64,000 nucleotides of DNA. Origin: Labilithrix sp. GTDB taxonomy: Bacteria > Myxococcota_A > Polyangia > Polyangiales > Polyangiaceae. The stretch is taken from positions 1,210,583 through 1,274,582 of the forward strand of contig JAXLYU010000005.1 of assembly GCA_046351255.1 (NCBI GenBank), read 5' to 3'. Within the stretch, counting starts at the first letter, position 1; each line of letters begins with the position of its first letter. Shown one piece after another: positions 9,538-13,675 of this stretch. The notes beneath the pieces were generated by a model, which saw only the letters and a list, made by a program, of their open reading frames with translations, ran no database searches and was not told the DNA's origin. The position numbers and the translations under genes are program-made.

Positions 9538-10374
9538 TCACAGGCAGCCATGAAACGGCAACTTCGCGGCCGCGCCGCGCGCGAGCCCCGTCTCGCAAGC
9601 GGCGCGCGTCGCGTACCAGCGTGTCGCGGACGCGGGCGAGTACGCCCAGATATCGCCTTTGGGGGAGTTGGTCAGCGAGATCAGCTCCCACATTTCTTTC
9701 GTGCGGCGGGCCACGAAGAGATGCTCGAGGCAGAGATATCCAACTTCCTCGCCGGGTGCGTGGACGAGGTGGATCCCGTCGTCGCTCAGCCGGGCGTCCT
9801 TGATCGTCGGACCGGAGAGCCTCAGCTCTCGATCACCCTCCCGTGAAAAGCCCCAGACGATGGCCGATGACGCGAGCTTGTCGCCCGTGAATCGGAGCTC
9901 GGCGCAGGACCGCTCGTCATCATCGCGCTGGAGAATGGCCGGCGGGAGCGTCGGATCGAGGTCCGACCAGGGGTCGATCTCCACCAGCACCGGCGGCGTG
10001 AGCGATCGCACGAGCGCGTCCGAGACGCGTGAGTCTCGAAGGACGAGCGGGCCGGCGCAACGGACATAGGCGCGAGGCGCACGCTCGAGATCGGCGTCGT
10101 CGATCCAGAACGTCTCCTCGTTCCGGGACACGCGCGTCGAGGCTCCGCGGCGCTCGTGCATCACGAGACGCGTGGCACACTCCGTCTGCCCGACGACGCT
10201 GCCTCCGGGGCTCGTACGCTTCGGCACCATGACGTCCCACAGCACGGGCAGAGCGGGCGTGCTCGGGTCGAACGGCTCCGGCTCGGGGCGCTTCGCTTGA
10301 CGGGCGCACGCCGCCGTCGTGACGACGAGGCTGGCGGCGAGCACCGCGACGAGCCCGACGCGCGCGCGTCTCAC
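9538..10374 (-). CDS. hypothetical lipoprotein
   Basis: GTG start at 10374 overlaps the stop of the upstream gene in a GTGA junction. VRRARVGLVAVLAASLVVTTAACARQ is a signal plus lipobox. The upstream 134 aa of the six-frame ORF (Arg-rich) are rejected. Confidence 0.45.
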   Translation of the reverse strand: MRRARVGLVAVLAASLVVTTAACARQAKRPEPEPFDPSTPALPVLWDVMVPKRTSPGGSVVGQTECATRLVMHERRGASTRVSRNEETFWIDDADLERAPRAYVRCAGPLVLRDSRVSDALVRSLTPPVLVEIDPWSDLDPTLPPAILQRDDDERSCAELRFTGDKLASSAIVWGFSREGDRELRLSGPTIKDARLSDDGIHLVHAPGEEVGYLCLEHLFVARRTKEMWELISLTNSPKGDIWAYSPASATRWYATRAACETGLARGAAAKLPFHGCL

Positions 10375-10826
10375 TTGCCCTTCTTCTTCTTCTTCACGAG
10401 CGAGCAGGACTTGTTCACGCACTTCGCGATGTAGTCCTTGGCGCTCTGGTAGTCGCCTTTGACCTCGACGTCGGTGCACTGCTGCTCTTTGCAGTCCTTG
10501 TCCGTGTTGTCGACCTCGGTCTTGAGCGCGGCGCGTGGGTCGCCCGCGGTGCAGCACGCGATGCGCGTCGTGACCACGCAGTCCTTGTCGGTCTTGCAGA
10601 TCGGACCAGTCACGGTGGAGGTCGCGGCGCCCGCGTCCGGCGCCTTCGCGGCGGCGGCAGAGCCCGAGGGCATGATGGGGATCCCGGGGGGCGGGTCGAG
10701 GTTCGGGACCTCGCGCGGCTCCGGCGGCGGGATGTACTTGGACGGCGGCGTCTCGCACGCGGCGACGGCGAACCACACGCTGGCGAGCAGCGCGCCTCCG
10801 GCCGTGGTCGTTCGCCTCCCGGTCAC
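10371..10826 (-). CDS. Cys-rich small lipoprotein with poly-Lys C-terminus
   Basis: MTGRRTTTAGGALLASVWFAVAACE is a signal plus lipobox. The mature part has about 12 Cys and ends KKKKKGK. Confidence 0.5.
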   Translation of the reverse strand: MTGRRTTTAGGALLASVWFAVAACETPPSKYIPPPEPREVPNLDPPPGIPIMPSGSAAAAKAPDAGAATSTVTGPICKTDKDCVVTTRIACCTAGDPRAALKTEVDNTDKDCKEQQCTDVEVKGDYQSAKDYIAKCVNKSCSLVKKKKKGK

Positions 10827-10841
10827 GGAGGCGAAGATAGC

Positions 10842-11105
10842 TCAGTCGATCGCTTTCTCGCTCGGTCTCAGAGGGTTGCGGAGCGATCCGGGATGGCAGG
10901 CGGTGACCTTGCCCTCACAAACCACGTCCACGCGCTCGTCGTCGGGCACCCCCTCGGCCTCGCTCGGGGTCGGCTGGCGCTCCTTTCCTTCGCACTTGCA
11001 GACGGTGTACTTCCCGGCTTTGTCGTAGCGGCTCGCGTTGACATGGCCGCAGGCCGACAAAATGAGCGCGGCTGCGACGATCGGCAGGAGATGACGCATG
11101 GGCAC
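10842..11105 (-). CDS. small Cys-rich lipoprotein
   Basis: MPMRHLLPIVAAALILSACG is a signal plus lipobox; six Cys in 87 aa. Confidence 0.4.
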   Translation of the reverse strand: MPMRHLLPIVAAALILSACGHVNASRYDKAGKYTVCKCEGKERQPTPSEAEGVPDDERVDVVCEGKVTACHPGSLRNPLRPSEKAID

Positions 11106-11224: not shown

Positions 11225-12511
11225 TCAGGCCCTCGCGGAGCCCGGCGGCGGACCGAAGCGCCGGGCGATGACCTCGAAGAGGTTCTCCCAGTGGAAGGTG
11301 TACTCGAGCGCGCCGAGCCGCAGGGCCGTCTCCCGGTTCCGTTCTGCGAAGTCTCCCGAGGAGAAGATGACGACCGGAGCTCGCCGGTCGTTCTGGCGCA
11401 TGCCCTCGAGGAGGCGAATCGCATCCGCCGGGCCATGGGGCTGATGACCCCAGCGTGAGATGACGAGCTCGTAGCTCTCGGTCTCCAGACGCTCCAGCGC
11501 GCGTTCGGGTGACTTCGCGAGCTCGATGGTGCAGAGCCCGCGGGCGGCGCGGTGAAGATAATCCGCGCCACGCGCGTTGTGGTGATCGTTGGGATCGACC
11601 CAGAGGATGCGCTTCTCTTCGAGGCGCGGCCCCATCACGTGGGCGGGCGAGGTCTTCGCGTGGAGCTTCCCGAGGAACTCGTCGACGTAACCGTGATCGG
11701 TATTGTCCTTCGAGTCGTAGTCGAAGACGTGAATGCCCTCGTGCTTGGCATAATGGGCACGAACGCTCGGGTGGACGTCGGCGAGGACCGCATAGGCGAC
11801 GGTCGGCGTGTCGCTGCCTTTCCCGATGTACGCGAGCGCCTCCGAGCGGAGCTCGTTCAGATACGCGTCGTTGAAGGAGAAGCCGATGAAGAGCAGCGTC
11901 TTCGTCATGAAGACGGTGCGGAGCACGTTGAGATATCCGGGTTCGGAATAGAGCCGTGTACGATAGCCGCGCCGAGAGAGCGTGATGCCCTTGTCGCCGC
12001 GGAGATCTCCGTGGAGCTTGAGGATGGGGCTCCGGCCCTGCGGCTCGTCCGGGCGAATCCAGAAGCGACGCGCGAGCAGGTTCCGATCCGCGTCGCGCAC
12101 GAGGGCGGAGTAGGTTTCGCGATCGAGGACGCTCCCGGGGAGCTCTTCATCGAAGTTGGTGGTGAGGATGGCGGCGAACGGGATCTCCTCGAGGAGCCGC
12201 TTTCGTCGCTCCATCCGCTCGCGCTCCTCCGCCGTGGGCGCGGGCTTCGGCGTGTGCCGGCGCACGAGCTCGAGGAGCCTCGAGGTCTCGTCGTGCGCGA
12301 ACGCATCCTCCAGCACCTGCGCTGCGATCTCGTATTCGCGCCGCTGGAGGAGCGCATCGACCTGATCTCGGACGCCGTGGTCGGGGGCCTCGGCCGCGAT
12401 CCGGCCGAGGAGCTCGCCCCATCGCCGGCAGACGGGGGAGGTGAAGCCCGCGCCGATGAACGCGACGCATCGTCCGGCGCGCGTCTCGGCGATGAGGTCG
12501 TCCAGGGACAT
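11225..12511 (-). CDS. SIR2_2-family (ThsA-like NADase fold) protein fused to C-terminal degenerate receiver (REC-like) domain
   Basis: The N-terminal 280 aa carry SIR2_2 signatures: VAFIGAGFTS (GAGxS), TTNFDEEL, ILKLHGD and LLFIGFSFND. The C-terminal roughly 120 aa align to the CheY fold (RILWVDPND / YELVISRWGHQP / PVVIFSSGD / GALEYTF), with the phospho-acceptor Asp replaced by Arg. Confidence 0.7.
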   Translation of the reverse strand: MSLDDLIAETRAGRCVAFIGAGFTSPVCRRWGELLGRIAAEAPDHGVRDQVDALLQRREYEIAAQVLEDAFAHDETSRLLELVRRHTPKPAPTAEERERMERRKRLLEEIPFAAILTTNFDEELPGSVLDRETYSALVRDADRNLLARRFWIRPDEPQGRSPILKLHGDLRGDKGITLSRRGYRTRLYSEPGYLNVLRTVFMTKTLLFIGFSFNDAYLNELRSEALAYIGKGSDTPTVAYAVLADVHPSVRAHYAKHEGIHVFDYDSKDNTDHGYVDEFLGKLHAKTSPAHVMGPRLEEKRILWVDPNDHHNARGADYLHRAARGLCTIELAKSPERALERLETESYELVISRWGHQPHGPADAIRLLEGMRQNDRRAPVVIFSSGDFAERNRETALRLGALEYTFHWENLFEVIARRFGPPPGSARA

Positions 12512-12517
12512 GCCGGG

Positions 12518-13675
12518 TCACCAGCCCGTCAGGGGCTTCACGTGCGCGACGAGCGCCTTGCTCATCCGGGTCTGGGTCGCCTTGCTCGGGTGATAGTCGC
12601 AGCCGAAGCCTTCCGCTTCGGTGGTCGTGTCGATGTCGAGCAGCGTGACCTTCGTGTCTCCGGCCGTCTTGCGGGCCTGGATCGTGGCCTCGAAGGCCTT
12701 CTTCTGGTCGGCCTTGTTCTGACCCTCGAGCATCGGCGACGTCGCGAGGACGATGTTCGAGCTCGGATGGGCGGCGCGAACGGCGGCCACGAACTCGGTC
12801 GTCTTGGCTCCGAAGCTGTCGCCCGGCGGGTCCCCAGCGAAGTCGTTCGTGCCCAGTCCGATGACGATGACGTCGGGCTCGAACAGGCTCGCTGTCCAGG
12901 TGCTCGCAGGGTCGGTCGCGAGCGCCCGCTTGTACCGCTCGGGCATCTGGTTCGTGCGGTTGTCTTCGTCGTCTTCGTAGACACCGATTCCCGACCAGGC
13001 GATCGACGCGTGCACCGCGTTCAGCTCCTTGGCGGCGAGCGCGCCCCACGCCAGCGGCTCATCCTCCGTCTCGGGCGAGAATCCACAGGTCTCGTCCGTG
13101 CCGAGCACGCCATAGCCGGCCGTGATCGAGTCGCCCACCATCTCGATCCGTCGGCTCGGTGGCGGCGGGGTCCCCACGAGCGTGGCGTTGATCTTGATGA
13201 GCTGCGTCTCGCCCACCGACGACTCCGTGCGCTTGGTCAACACGAGCGTGTGCTCACCCGCGCCGAGGCCCTTGGCGAGCTCGTACGTCTTCTTCTCCTG
13301 CTGATCCACGTCGAGGAGGGTCGGCTCCTTGCCGTCGATGCTGACGTCGAACTGGTCCTCGTTTGAGGTGTCTGCAAGGTCGACGCTGATGGTGTCCCCG
13401 GTGAATCTCGCGATGACCTGCGTGCCGGGCCAGCCGAAGCGTGGACCCGCGGGGTCGCGCGAGTCGAAGCGGCCGACGATGCGGTAGGGCTCGAGCGAGA
13501 CCGGAGGCGCGGAGTCTGCGTCCCTGTCCGTGACGGCCGCCGGCGCGTCGTTCACGCTGGCGTCCTTCGCGCCGCTCGAGGCGGGCGCTGCGCCCCCCTC
13601 CTCGTCGGAGCAGCCGAGCCACACGAAGCCTGCAGAAATCAGGGAGAAGACGAGGAGTGACGCGCGAAAACGCAC
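12518..13675 (-). CDS. SGNH/GDSL hydrolase, CE2-like esterase lipoprotein
   Basis: Signal with LGCS lipobox. GDSITAGYG (block I), GTNDF and DYHPS (catalytic Asp-x-x-His) are present, with an N-terminal beta-sandwich region. Its stop lies 6 nt upstream of the SIR2 gene start. Confidence 0.7.
   Translation of the reverse strand: MRFRASLLVFSLISAGFVWLGCSDEEGGAAPASSGAKDASVNDAPAAVTDRDADSAPPVSLEPYRIVGRFDSRDPAGPRFGWPGTQVIARFTGDTISVDLADTSNEDQFDVSIDGKEPTLLDVDQQEKKTYELAKGLGAGEHTLVLTKRTESSVGETQLIKINATLVGTPPPPSRRIEMVGDSITAGYGVLGTDETCGFSPETEDEPLAWGALAAKELNAVHASIAWSGIGVYEDDEDNRTNQMPERYKRALATDPASTWTASLFEPDVIVIGLGTNDFAGDPPGDSFGAKTTEFVAAVRAAHPSSNIVLATSPMLEGQNKADQKKAFEATIQARKTAGDTKVTLLDIDTTTEAEGFGCDYHPSKATQTRMSKALVAHVKPLTGW

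What the first reader, a model, noticed from the sequence alone, without database searches (positions are those of the whole stretch)
10371..13675. SIR2_2 (ThsA-like NADase fold) fused to a degenerate receiver domain, in a tight cluster with an SGNH esterase and three small Cys-rich lipoproteins
The protein at 11225..12511 carries the diagnostic SIR2_2 blocks (GAGxS, TTNFD, KLHGD, FIGFSFND). These blocks define the NAD+-depleting effectors of Thoeris, DSR and other antiphage systems. The C-terminal 120 aa look like a CheY-fold receiver, with the phospho-acceptor Asp changed to Arg; that is a pseudo-receiver. I do not recall a SIR2_2-REC architecture as a described defence or signalling system. 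Its start is only 6 nt from the stop of an upstream SGNH/GDSL esterase lipoprotein. Three small Cys-rich lipoprotein genes follow on the same strand, one joined by a GTGA overlap, which suggests a single transcription unit. This could be a new NADase-based stress, defence or signalling module gated through the receiver-like domain. It could equally be a metabolic SIR2-like enzyme.
Basis: partly seen in the sequence, partly recalled or inferred. Interest (0 to 1): 0.7.

Follow-up and report, generated by a model that had tools for sequence, protein, structure and literature searches.

The report
SIR2 NADase with aspartate-less receiver domain
The gene is real: it joins an immune-type, NAD-cleaving sirtuin domain to a receiver-like domain that can no longer be phosphorylated. 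It belongs to a large uncharacterised family that often sits among anti-phage genes in other bacteria, whereas the esterase and lipoprotein genes beside it here are only local neighbours.

Summary
The sequence-level observation holds. Window 11225-12511 (-) encodes a 428-aa protein in two parts.

- **N-terminal half:** a SIR2_2 domain (Pfam E 2.6e-21) resembling ThsA, KomC and DSR2. Its catalytic N119, D121 and H167 are invariant in 164 relatives.

The fusion defines a large uncharacterised family: 630 clusters at 50% identity, mostly Myxococcota. I found no description of it in the literature, and PADLOC 2.0 gave no full-length match.

The proposed cluster is not a system. Across 53 loci no neighbour is conserved. 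The CE2 esterase pairing occurs only in relatives of at least 73% identity, and the three lipoprotein genes move as a separate cassette.

Seven of 12 annotated contexts place family members beside defence genes: BREX/Pgl three times, a type IV restriction enzyme, and ARG-centred ADP-ribose modules. The window copy itself lies among housekeeping genes.

Best reading: a single-gene, regulated NAD+-consuming effector, probably for defence, whose pseudo-receiver acts without phosphorylation as the sensor or assembly switch. This is a new variant of a known kind, of moderate interest.

The parts
11225..12511 (-). SIR2_2-pseudo-receiver gene, 428 aa including stop. This is the core of the finding.
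   Evidence: ORF. 139 homologues found, the 120 listed covering 53-100% of the query (most 95% or more) at 35-98% identity. AF2 model pLDDT 83, pTM 0.80.
11642..12511 (-). SIR2_2 (SIRim-type) NAD+-binding and catalytic domain with linker helices, residues 1-290.
   Evidence: Pfam PF13289 E 2.6e-21. Family profile against PDB: SeThsA 1e-25, EcThsA 3e-21, KomC 8e-21, DSR2 2e-12, FAM118B 4e-9. Foldseek top hits are ThsA, KomC and DSR2.
12149..12157 (-). Catalytic N119-F120-D121 of the TTNFD block.
   Evidence: N119 and D121 are identical in 164 of 164 full-length family members. Coordinates checked.
12011..12013 (-). Catalytic His167 of the KLHGD block.
   Evidence: Identical in 164 of 164 members. 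Aligns with the HGD block of SeThsA and EcThsA; that this is the catalytic His of ThsA is from my own recall.
11252..11626 (-). Aspartate-less receiver (pseudo-REC) domain, residues 296-420.
11447..11455 (-). R353-W354-G355 at the end of beta3. R353 occupies the phospho-acceptor (CheY D57) position.
   Evidence: Alignment to CheY 'ISDWN'. Position 353 is H in 90, R in 47 and D in 2 of 164 members; W354 is 90% and G355 95% conserved.
11594..11602 (-). W304-V305-D306 at the end of beta1. D306 is the only retained member of the receiver acidic pocket (CheY D12 equivalent); the next residue is Pro rather than Asp.
   Evidence: W304 is conserved in 164 of 164, D306 in 159 of 164, P307 in 121 of 164.
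12518..13675 (-). CE2-family SGNH acetyl-esterase lipoprotein. It is the upstream neighbour, 6 nt from the SIR2 start. It is probably co-transcribed but is not a conserved partner of the family.
   Evidence: Pfam CE2_N 8e-28 and Lipase_GDSL_2 8.5e-17. NCBIfam AxeC2-like 2.9e-44. Signal plus lipobox ...FVWLGC, conserved in L081 and L083. The adjacency occurs only in WIN, L081 and L083.
9538..11105 (-). Separate three-gene lipoprotein cassette: 10842-11105 (87 aa), 10371-10826 (151 aa) and 9538-10374 (278 aa). It is not part of the SIR2 unit.
   Evidence: Lipoboxes LSAC, VAAC and TAAC with Cys-rich mature parts. No Pfam, PADLOC or NCBIfam family above a curated cutoff. In L083 the cassette sits apart from the SIR2 gene.

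Best explanation
The gene encodes a cytoplasmic, single-polypeptide NAD+-consuming effector of the immune-type sirtuin class (SIR2_2, also called SIRim).

**Catalytic half.** It is ThsA-like and its active site is fully conserved, so it most likely hydrolyses NAD+.

**Regulatory half.** The C-terminal receiver fold has lost the phospho-acceptor Asp (Arg here, His in most relatives), the second metal-binding Asp and the conserved Lys, so it cannot take part in a His-Asp phosphorelay. Its former active-site face is nonetheless strongly conserved (W304, D306, N312, H/R353, W354, G355, F383). The loop that follows the WG motif varies widely in length. The domain is found almost only behind SIR2_2.

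**Inferred mechanism.** The pseudo-receiver acts without phosphorylation as the regulatory module. It would keep the sirtuin off until a cue triggers it, either a ligand or a protein bound at the remodelled pocket and loop. It would then permit the oligomer or filament assembly that activates other immune sirtuins, causing NAD+ depletion and growth arrest.

**Biological role.** Family-wide genomic context points to a role in conflict with phages or mobile elements, as a one-gene system that is often accreted to BREX/Pgl, restriction and ADP-ribose-processing modules. In this window the copy is a chromosomal solo gene among housekeeping genes. It is coupled translationally to an unrelated exported CE2 esterase only through lineage-specific synteny.

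**Shown versus inferred.** Shown: the architecture, the residue conservation, the lack of a conserved partner, and the defence-island contexts. Inferred: NADase activity, autoinhibition and assembly, and the defence phenotype.
For: - **SIR2 domain.** Pfam SIR2_2 E 2.6e-21. PADLOC hits cover the SIR2 part only: LmuA 2e-24, ThsA 5e-14. Foldseek top hits are ThsA, KomC, DSR2, FAM118B and Avs5. The family profile hits SeThsA at 1e-25 and KomC at 8e-21. N119, D121 and H167 are invariant in 164 of 164 members.
- **No zinc module.** There is no Cys in residues 31-110. This matches SIR2_2 NADases rather than deacylases (PMC12700824).
- **Family size and pairing.** The pseudo-receiver profile finds 630 clusters at E<=1e-10, almost all C-terminal to SIR2_2.
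- **No conserved neighbour** across 53 loci.
- **Defence contexts.** BREX type 1 (L087). A PglX-type methyltransferase and a PglW-like NERD-kinase protein (L096). PglZ and BrxHI (E 1e-257), with BrxHI ending 1 nt before the gene (L099). A type IV methyl-directed REase (E 5e-244) plus PDC-S03 (L084, a window-clade member at 62% identity). ARG, a PTP-family (rhodanese-phosphatase-type) phosphatase and REase-ARP (L100). REase-ARP, TY-Chap2 and Macro (L097). ARPP-1 and HNH (L093).
- **Precedents.** Filament or oligomer activation is documented for ThsA, KomC, FAM118B and Avs5 structures (entry titles; PMC12700824). A receiver domain gating a metabolite-depleting effector in defence is documented for Detocs (doi 10.1101/2023.01.24.525353).
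Against: - **Window copy.** It shows no defence or mobile-element hallmarks. Its neighbours are a pyridine-nucleotide oxidoreductase, HDOD, Metallophos_2, HutD, an esterase and an M32 peptidase. There are no tRNAs, flanking repeats or Rfam hits. Its GC matches the flanks (-0.008).
- **Window clade.** It keeps local synteny down to 73% identity, which looks like vertical inheritance.
- **Other contexts.** Five of 12 annotated contexts are non-defence.
- **Viral contigs.** The family is essentially absent from them.
- **Untested.** No NADase, toxicity or phage assay exists. The oligomerisation and sensing roles of the pseudo-receiver rest on analogy alone. The defence tally is small and not fully independent (P0106 and P0109 are relatives), and I assumed rather than measured the background rate.
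Confidence: 0.5

Rival explanations
1. Housekeeping or regulatory sirtuin. The protein is a chromosomal NAD+-dependent signalling enzyme of Myxococcota, such as a protein ADP-ribosyltransferase, a deacylase or an NAD+-level regulator. Its pseudo-receiver docks onto a signalling partner, and it has no role in defence.
For: The window context is housekeeping and the gene has native composition. Synteny is retained among relatives of 73-87% identity. There are five non-defence contexts. Myxococcota are rich in signalling proteins, and Ser/Thr kinases are the commonest neighbours. The family is absent from viral contigs.
Against: The catalytic domain belongs to the SIR2_2/SIRim class and lacks the zinc module needed by canonical deacylases (PMC12700824). 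Its closest solved relatives are all immune NADases. The phyletic distribution is patchy across at least seven phyla. Seven of 12 contexts are defence islands, including one member of the window's own clade. No signalling partner is conserved.
Confidence: 0.25
2. NAD+/ADP-ribose supplier or modifier within ADP-ribose-centred conflict systems. The sirtuin ADP-ribosylates a target, or produces ADPr or a derivative, which neighbouring ARG, Macro, phosphatase and REase-ARP proteins then read or erase. The pseudo-receiver binds an ADPr-derived ligand.
For: The gene is embedded co-directionally in ARG, PTP-family (rhodanese-phosphatase-type) phosphatase and REase-ARP clusters (L100). It also lies in a REase-ARP / TY-Chap2 / Macro cluster (L097) and beside ARPP-1 (L093). 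REase-ARP and TY-Chap2 recur among neighbours in the genome loci. A Metallophos-fused variant exists (P0077). Sirtuin-cRec linkages in NAD/ADPr systems are described in PMC9503650.
Against: Only about 3-4 of roughly 60 loci show these partners, and none is present in the window. Iyer et al. defined ARG-centric systems by the absence of a coupled sirtuin, so the adjacency may simply reflect island clustering. The pseudo-receiver does not keep the two Asp residues that define cRec.
Confidence: 0.12
3. The esterase, the SIR2-REC protein and the three lipoproteins form one operon that acts together, for example as an envelope-stress or acetyl-ADP-ribose module.
For: The esterase stop and the SIR2 start are 6 nt apart here and in L081, and overlap by 4 nt in L083. 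This junction survives although both flanks have been rearranged. All the genes lie on one strand in the window.
Against: The pairing is absent at 64% identity or less and in all 50 other loci. The lipoprotein trio is detached from the SIR2 gene in L083, and a 119-nt gap separates it from the SIR2 gene here. The esterase and the lipoproteins have lipoprotein signal peptides, whereas the SIR2 protein has none. The CE2_N plus SGNH architecture is that of polysaccharide acetyl-esterases.
Confidence: 0.05

Closest known systems
ThsA of type I Thoeris (SIR2-SLOG NADase)
   Same: The layout is the same: an N-terminal SIR2_2 catalytic domain of similar size followed by a roughly 130-aa alpha/beta regulatory domain. 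ThsA proteins give the best sequence and structure matches, and the catalytic Asn and His are conserved.
   Different: The C-terminal domain is a receiver fold, not SLOG/STALD. No TIR (ThsB) gene lies nearby in the window, and none recurs near family members. The activating signal is therefore unknown.
Single-protein and accessory SIR2 defence effectors: DSR1/DSR2, KomC of Kongming, Avs5, SIR2-HerA, Lamassu LmuA-Sir2
   Same: These are immune SIR2_2 domains that deplete NAD+ after activation, often through oligomer or filament formation. PADLOC LmuA and ThsA models match the SIR2 part.
   Different: None of them carries a receiver fold. The protein is far shorter than DSR1/DSR2 (PADLOC Dsr model lengths are about 1,220 positions), has no STAND NTPase domain, and has no HerA, KomA/B or LmuB/C neighbour.
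Detocs DtcC (receiver domain plus PNP ATP nucleosidase)
   Same: A receiver fold is joined to a metabolite-depleting abortive-infection effector (doi 10.1101/2023.01.24.525353).
   Different: In DtcC the receiver is N-terminal, needs its phospho-acceptor Asp (D58A abolishes defence), and works with the kinase DtcA and the buffer DtcB. Here the receiver is C-terminal and lacks the Asp, there is no kinase, and no Dtc model matched in PADLOC.
Aspartate-less or pseudo-receiver domains (for example KaiA, plant PRRs, FrzS, RitR; from my own knowledge)
   Same: They have the REC fold without the phospho-acceptor and act through protein-protein contacts or constitutive conformations.
   Different: To my knowledge those domains are attached to DNA-binding, clock or motility outputs, not to a sirtuin. 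Here the substitution is specifically His or Arg, next to an invariant Trp-Gly.
cRec domains of NAD+/ADPr systems (Iyer et al., PMC7824862 and PMC9503650)
   Same: They are divergent receiver folds that occur outside two-component systems and are linked to sirtuins and ADPr processing.
   Different: cRec is defined as keeping two catalytic Asp residues and is predicted to be a phosphoesterase. This domain keeps only D306. Pfam reported only Response_reg for this region.
Human FAM118A/B and other SIRim sirtuins
   Same: They belong to the same SIR2_2 class, lack a zinc module, and act as NADases with filament-based activation (PMC12700824; doi 10.1101/2024.09.18.613514). The profile match is E 4e-9.
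   Different: They have no receiver domain and form a vertebrate-specific clade.

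Membership tests
SIR2_2 / SIRim sirtuins (PF13289) | Pfam model matched above the gathering score | tested here: met
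   76.6 bits against a cutoff of 24.5, E 2.6e-21, residues 114-262.
SIR2_2 / SIRim sirtuins (PF13289) | Gly-rich NAD loop plus catalytic Asn and His | tested here: met
   GAGFT at 20-24, TTNFD at 117-121, KLHGD at 165-169. N119, D121 and H167 are identical in 164 of 164 members.
SIR2_2 / SIRim sirtuins (PF13289) | Fold resembles immune sirtuins; helical small subdomain without a zinc-binding Cys4 module | tested here: met
   Foldseek hits to ThsA, KomC and DSR2 at E 5e-10 to 1e-8. Residues 31-110 are helical and contain no Cys.
SIR2_2 / SIRim sirtuins (PF13289) | NAD+ hydrolase activity | not testable with these tools
   Needs an enzyme assay.
Thoeris type I (ThsA/ThsB) | C-terminal SLOG/STALD domain that binds 3'cADPR | tested here: not met
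Thoeris type I (ThsA/ThsB) | Adjacent TIR-domain ThsB gene | tested here: not met
   No TIR hit among the window neighbours. None among the recurrent neighbour families of 53 loci.
Two-component receiver domain (PF00072) | (beta-alpha)5 CheY fold and sequence homology | tested here: met
Two-component receiver domain (PF00072) | Phospho-acceptor Asp at the end of beta3 | tested here: not met
   R353 in the window. Across the family: H 90, R 47, D 2 of 164.
Two-component receiver domain (PF00072) | Acidic Mg2+ pair at the end of beta1 and the conserved Lys after beta5 | tested here: not met
   D306 is kept but the next residue is Pro. The Lys position falls in a gap or a variable column.
Two-component receiver domain (PF00072) | Cognate histidine kinase encoded nearby | tested here: not met
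   No kinase among the window neighbours or in the 12 annotated contexts.
Detocs | DtcA kinase, DtcB buffer and DtcC receiver-effector operon | tested here: not met
   No Dtc model hit in PADLOC at E<=1. There is no kinase neighbour and the receiver lacks the Asp.
Lamassu (LmuA-Sir2 / LmuB / LmuC) | Full-length LmuA match and an adjacent SMC-like LmuB | tested here: not met
   LmuA model PDLC03856 aligns over model positions 5-274 of 433 only. No SMC-like neighbour is present.
DSR1 / DSR2 | Protein of more than 1000 aa with a large C-terminal sensor; model match | tested here: not met
   The protein is 428 aa. PADLOC Dsr1 and Dsr2 E-values are 0.03 and 0.08.
cRec domain | Two conserved catalytic Asp residues in a receiver-like fold (PMC9503650) | tested here: not met
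   Only D306 is conserved; the second position is His or Arg.
Anti-phage defence gene (operational definition: enriched next to known defence genes) | Family members are frequently flanked by known defence systems | tested here: inconclusive
   Seven of 12 annotated contexts are defence-type. The sample is small, the background rate was not measured, and the window copy is not in an island.
CE2 carbohydrate esterase (the upstream neighbour, 12518-13675) | CE2_N beta-sandwich plus SGNH hydrolase domain | tested here: met
   PF17996 at 8e-28 and PF13472 at 8.5e-17. NCBIfam AxeC2 hit at 2.9e-44, below its equivalog cutoff.

The most novel reading that the evidence does not exclude
An aspartate-less receiver fold has been repurposed as the infection sensor of a one-gene abortive-infection system. 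The remodelled pocket (D306, N312, H/R353, W354, G355) and the hypervariable loop that follows the WG motif would bind a phage protein or a nucleotide/ADPr-derived cue. Binding would license assembly of a ThsA-like SIR2 NADase. This would be immune signalling through a REC domain with no phosphorelay, recurrently recruited as an add-on to BREX and to ADP-ribose-processing defence modules.
Probability: 0.3. Interest if true: 0.65.

Novelty: new variant of a known kind. Interest (0 to 1): 0.5.

Why it matters
Immune sirtuins are a major class of NAD+-depleting effectors from bacteria to humans, and what differs between systems is how they are switched on. This family adds a switch I did not find described: a receiver fold that has lost its phosphorylation chemistry but kept a conserved, remodelled pocket.

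If it is confirmed as a defence gene, three things follow.
- It would add a compact single-gene system that is common in Myxococcota and several other phyla.
- It would show a second, phosphorylation-independent route by which two-component parts were recruited to immunity, alongside Detocs.
- It would help annotate hundreds of 'SIR2 family' or 'CheY-like' hypothetical proteins.

The analysis also removes a false lead. The esterase and lipoprotein genes are not part of the system.

Tried and rejected
- **Gene calling.** My first three home-made gene callers for the high-GC loci mis-called antisense ORFs or trimmed real genes. A fourth version was adequate and I used it only for clustering.
- **PADLOC on pooled neighbours.** The scan was swamped by Ser/Thr kinases matching PD-T4-6 models. 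I abandoned it in favour of targeted scans.
- **Viral contigs.** One weak relative was found, matching the SIR2 domain only, so there is no phage-borne origin.
- **Window locus features.** No Rfam hit, no tRNA and no meaningful repeats around the locus. The terminator and promoter scans gave nothing above the shuffled expectation.
- **GC deviation.** The gene's GC differs little from its flanks in most loci, with a median of about 0. This neither proves nor excludes transfer.
- **Small upstream ORFs.** Those in L097 and L100 show no obvious similarity by eye, so I saw no conserved small partner.
- **cRec identity.** Considered and rejected, because the defining Asp pair is not kept.
- **O-acetyl-ADP-ribose esterase idea for the CE2 neighbour.** Rejected, because the esterase is an exported lipoprotein.
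- **Literature searches.** Searches for SIR2 plus receiver, REC, CheY-like or Response_reg returned nothing describing this fusion.
- **Model geometry.** I could not inspect the model coordinates, so the geometry between the two domains was not analysed.

Full report
**What is in the window.**

All the genes of the finding lie on the minus strand.
- 12518-13675 encodes a 385-aa lipoprotein with CE2_N and GDSL/SGNH domains (Pfam 8e-28 and 8.5e-17; AxeC2-like in NCBIfam).
- 11225-12511 encodes the 428-aa protein of interest.
- 10842-11105 (87 aa), 10371-10826 (151 aa) and 9538-10374 (278 aa) encode three Cys-rich lipoproteins with no family match above a curated cutoff.

- The esterase stop and the SIR2 ATG are 6 nt apart.
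- Lipoproteins 2 and 3 share a GTGA overlap.
- However, 119 nt separate the SIR2 stop from the first lipoprotein gene.
- The third lipoprotein is not small.

There are no Rfam hits, tRNAs, notable repeats or promoter/terminator signals above the shuffled expectation.

**The N-terminal half is an immune-type sirtuin.**

- Pfam SIR2_2 matches at E 2.6e-21, 76.6 bits against a cutoff of 24.5.
- PADLOC models match the SIR2 part only: LmuA 2e-24 and ThsA 5e-14. Dsr1 and Dsr2 are not significant.
- A 31-sequence alignment gave an AlphaFold model with pLDDT 83 and pTM 0.80. Its best Foldseek matches in the PDB are ThsA, KomC (Kongming), DSR2, FAM118B and Avs5.
- The family profile hits SeThsA at 1e-25, EcThsA at 3e-21, KomC at 8e-21, DSR2 at 2e-12 and FAM118B at 4e-9.
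- In 164 full-length relatives, N119, D121 (the TTNFD block) and H167 (the KLHGD block) are invariant.
- The small subdomain (residues 31-110) is helical and has no Cys, so there is no zinc module. SIR2_2 NADases lack that module, and canonical deacylases need it (PMC12700824).

**The C-terminal half is a real receiver fold that cannot be phosphorylated.**

- The single sequence scores below Pfam's Response_reg cutoff, 16.9 against 30.2 bits.
- A 25-sequence profile of residues 290-428 hits solved receiver domains at E 8e-8 (XynC) and about 1e-6 (CheY).
- The HMMER alignment to CheY places R353 of 'ISRWG' on D57 of 'ISDWN', D306 on D12 and P307 on D13. It leaves K109 in a gap.
- Across 164 members the D57 position is His in 90, Arg in 47 and Asp in only 2. 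All 33 members of the window's clade (at least 50% identity) have Arg.
- The rest of the former active-site face is strongly conserved: W304 100%, D306 97%, N312 88%, W354 90%, G355 95%, F383 95%, G400 100%.
- The loop after the WG motif (beta3-alpha3 by the model's secondary structure) varies from about 6 to 20 residues.

This is therefore an aspartate-less receiver under selection for a function other than phosphotransfer.

**The fusion defines a family.**

- A word-indexed search found 139 relatives. The 120 listed cover 53-100% of the query (most 95% or more) at 35-98% identity.
- Most carry no name from their source. The few that do are labelled 'hypothetical protein', 'SIR2 family' or 'CheY-like chemotaxis protein'.
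- The pseudo-receiver profile, searched against 1.84 billion representatives, finds 630 clusters at E<=1e-10.
- In the hits of 400-480 aa the domain sits at positions ~300-440. Of ten atypical hits, seven still carry SIR2_2.
- Variants add an N-terminal XRE HTH, a C-terminal Metallophos domain or a cupin domain.
- In species-representative genomes the family occurs mostly in Myxococcota (Labilithrix, Enhygromyxa, Plesiocystis, Nannocystaceae, Polyangia, Sandaracinaceae). It also occurs in Acidimicrobiia, Gemmatimonadota, Lamprocystis, Binatia, Chthoniobacterales, Nitrospirae and Planctomycetota. The distribution is patchy.
- It is essentially absent from viral contigs.

**Neighbourhoods.**

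I called genes in 53 non-redundant family loci and clustered all neighbours within 6 kb.
- No neighbour family is shared beyond close relatives. The largest cluster, in 8 loci, is made of Ser/Thr kinases, which are common in these genomes.
- Pfam scans of 253 neighbours within +/-3 genes returned 104 and 113 different families, none in more than 6 proteins.
- The CE2 esterase is adjacent only in the window and in the relatives at 87% and 73% identity: a 6-nt gap in L081 and a 4-nt overlap in L083.
- The pairing is lost at 62-64% identity.
- In L083 the three lipoprotein genes still form a trio, but they lie about 2.9 kb upstream on the other strand, beyond a GST gene and a sigma-factor gene.
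- The esterase keeps its ...W[LV]GC lipobox in all three loci. The SIR2 protein has no signal peptide.

At most it includes a co-transcribed esterase-SIR2 pair, and it is not a functional system.

**Defence association.**

Twelve family proteins on long contigs were looked up with their pre-computed gene annotations. Seven have defence-type genes directly beside them.
- P0109: BrxA, BrxB, BrxC and PglX.
- P0106: a PglX-type methyltransferase and a PglW-like NERD-kinase protein.
- P0043: PglZ, BrxC/D and a helicase that PADLOC identifies as BrxHI (E 1e-257). That helicase ends 1 nt before the SIR2 start, and a gene with a faint McrBC hit is nearby.
- P0012, a member of the window's clade: a type IV methyl-directed restriction enzyme (E 5e-244) and a Uma2/PDC-S03 candidate.
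- P0040: ADP-ribosylglycohydrolase, a PTP-family (rhodanese-phosphatase-type) phosphatase, REase-ARP and a TmtA-like giant protein, next to a serine recombinase.
- P0119: REase-ARP, TY-Chap2, Macro and a UvrD-like helicase.
- P0101, an HTH variant: ARPP-1, HNH and SNase.

Five contexts look ordinary: P0002 and P0006 (the window's closest relatives), P0103, P0028 and P0120.

If about 10% of random genes had such neighbours, which is my assumption and was not measured, 7 of 12 would be very unlikely by chance. The sample is small and partly non-independent.

The ARG / R-P phosphatase / REase-ARP / TY-Chap2 / ARPP sets are the 'ARG-centric' predicted immune systems of Iyer et al. Those authors defined them by the absence of a coupled sirtuin. 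The SIR2-pseudo-receiver gene is therefore an add-on or an island neighbour there, not a described component.

**The window copy.**

Its neighbours are a SthA-like pyridine-nucleotide oxidoreductase, an HDOD protein, Metallophos_2, HutD, an esterase and an M32 carboxypeptidase. Its GC equals that of the flanks. All catalytic and pocket residues are intact, so it is not a decayed relic. It looks like a stably inherited chromosomal copy.

**Mechanism.**

Shown:
- The active site is ThsA-like and invariant.
- The receiver fold lacks its phosphorylation chemistry but has a conserved face and a variable adjacent loop.
- The two domains are almost always found together.
- There is no conserved partner gene.

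Inferred:
- The protein hydrolyses NAD+.
- The pseudo-receiver holds it inactive until a cue is bound.
- Activation proceeds through oligomer or filament formation, as in ThsA, KomC, FAM118B and Avs5 (entry titles; PMC12700824).
- The result is growth arrest.

Detocs shows that a receiver fold can gate a metabolite-depleting effector in defence. There the phospho-acceptor Asp and a kinase are required (doi 10.1101/2023.01.24.525353); here both are missing.

**Comparison, novelty and score.**

The protein is a member of the SIR2_2/SIRim class. It is not a member of Thoeris, Lamassu, DSR, Detocs or cRec, because each fails at least one defining feature that I tested. I found no paper describing a SIR2-receiver fusion, and PADLOC 2.0 gave no full-length match.

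I rate it a new variant of a known kind: an immune sirtuin with a new regulatory domain. Interest is 0.5.
- The architecture and the family are solid, and the defence link is suggestive.
- SIR2 effectors with varied sensor domains are already well known.
- Nothing functional has been tested.
- The specific copy in this window sits in an ordinary context.

Noticed in passing
window 9538-11105 (-); L081 9353-10090; L083 3808-5117: The three lipoprotein genes (87, 151 and 278 aa) form their own conserved cassette with no family match. The first is about 85-91 aa and highly conserved, with a CKCEG...VVCxGKVTxCHPGSLRNP motif. The middle one ends in a Lys/Arg-rich tail (KKKKKGK here, PKRKKR and KKRKPK in relatives).
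   Followed up: partly
window 13716-15137 (-); L083 9287-9808: A SthA-like pyridine-nucleotide-disulfide oxidoreductase lies 40 nt upstream of the esterase gene. In L083 a 173-aa ORF made of N- and C-terminal pieces of the same protein lies convergent to the SIR2 gene. This looks like a rearrangement scar. An NAD(P)-handling enzyme next to an NAD+-consuming one may be coincidence.
   Followed up: partly
L087 1-7716; L096 1-6658; L099 1-6999: Family members lie beside BREX/Pgl loci three times, in three different arrangements. In one, the gene starts 1 nt after the BrxHI helicase gene, as if it were a BREX accessory gene.
   Followed up: partly
L100 7001-11152; L097 4756-10752; L093 5930-9716: Family members are embedded in or next to 'ARG-centric' ADP-ribose-processing clusters (ARG, PTP-family rhodanese-phosphatase-type phosphatase, REase-ARP, TY-Chap2, Macro, ARPP-1). 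Iyer et al. 2022 defined these clusters by the absence of a coupled sirtuin.
   Followed up: partly
proteins P0062, P0067, P0068, P0078, P0080, P0101, P0174 (HTH); P0077 (Metallophos); P0099 (cupin); P0227 (unknown 220-aa tail): Family variants carry an N-terminal XRE-type HTH, or C-terminal phosphoesterase, cupin or unknown extensions after the pseudo-receiver.
   Followed up: partly
L041, L045, L049, L055 (Acidimicrobiia): These relatives match only query residues ~4-324 and encode proteins of about 390 aa. They may lack the pseudo-receiver or carry a different C-terminal domain.
   Followed up: no
L024, L037, L039, L058: These contigs are labelled Enterobacterales, Enterobacteriaceae or Rickettsiales MAGs, yet L037, the one whose GC I computed, has about 71-74% GC, and all four carry this family, which otherwise occurs mostly in Myxococcota. 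The taxonomic labels look wrong.
   Followed up: no
window 11552-13366 (+): A 604-aa ORF runs antisense to the SIR2 and esterase genes. It is the usual high-GC antisense artefact and not a gene: homologues and domain hits all support the minus-strand frames.
   Followed up: yes
L027, L028, L031 (Lamprocystis): In these loci the family gene is 4.5-6 GC points richer than its flanks. This suggests acquisition from a high-GC donor such as Myxococcota. The opposite deviation, -4 to -5 points, is seen in L050, L038, L052, L090 and L087.
   Followed up: partly
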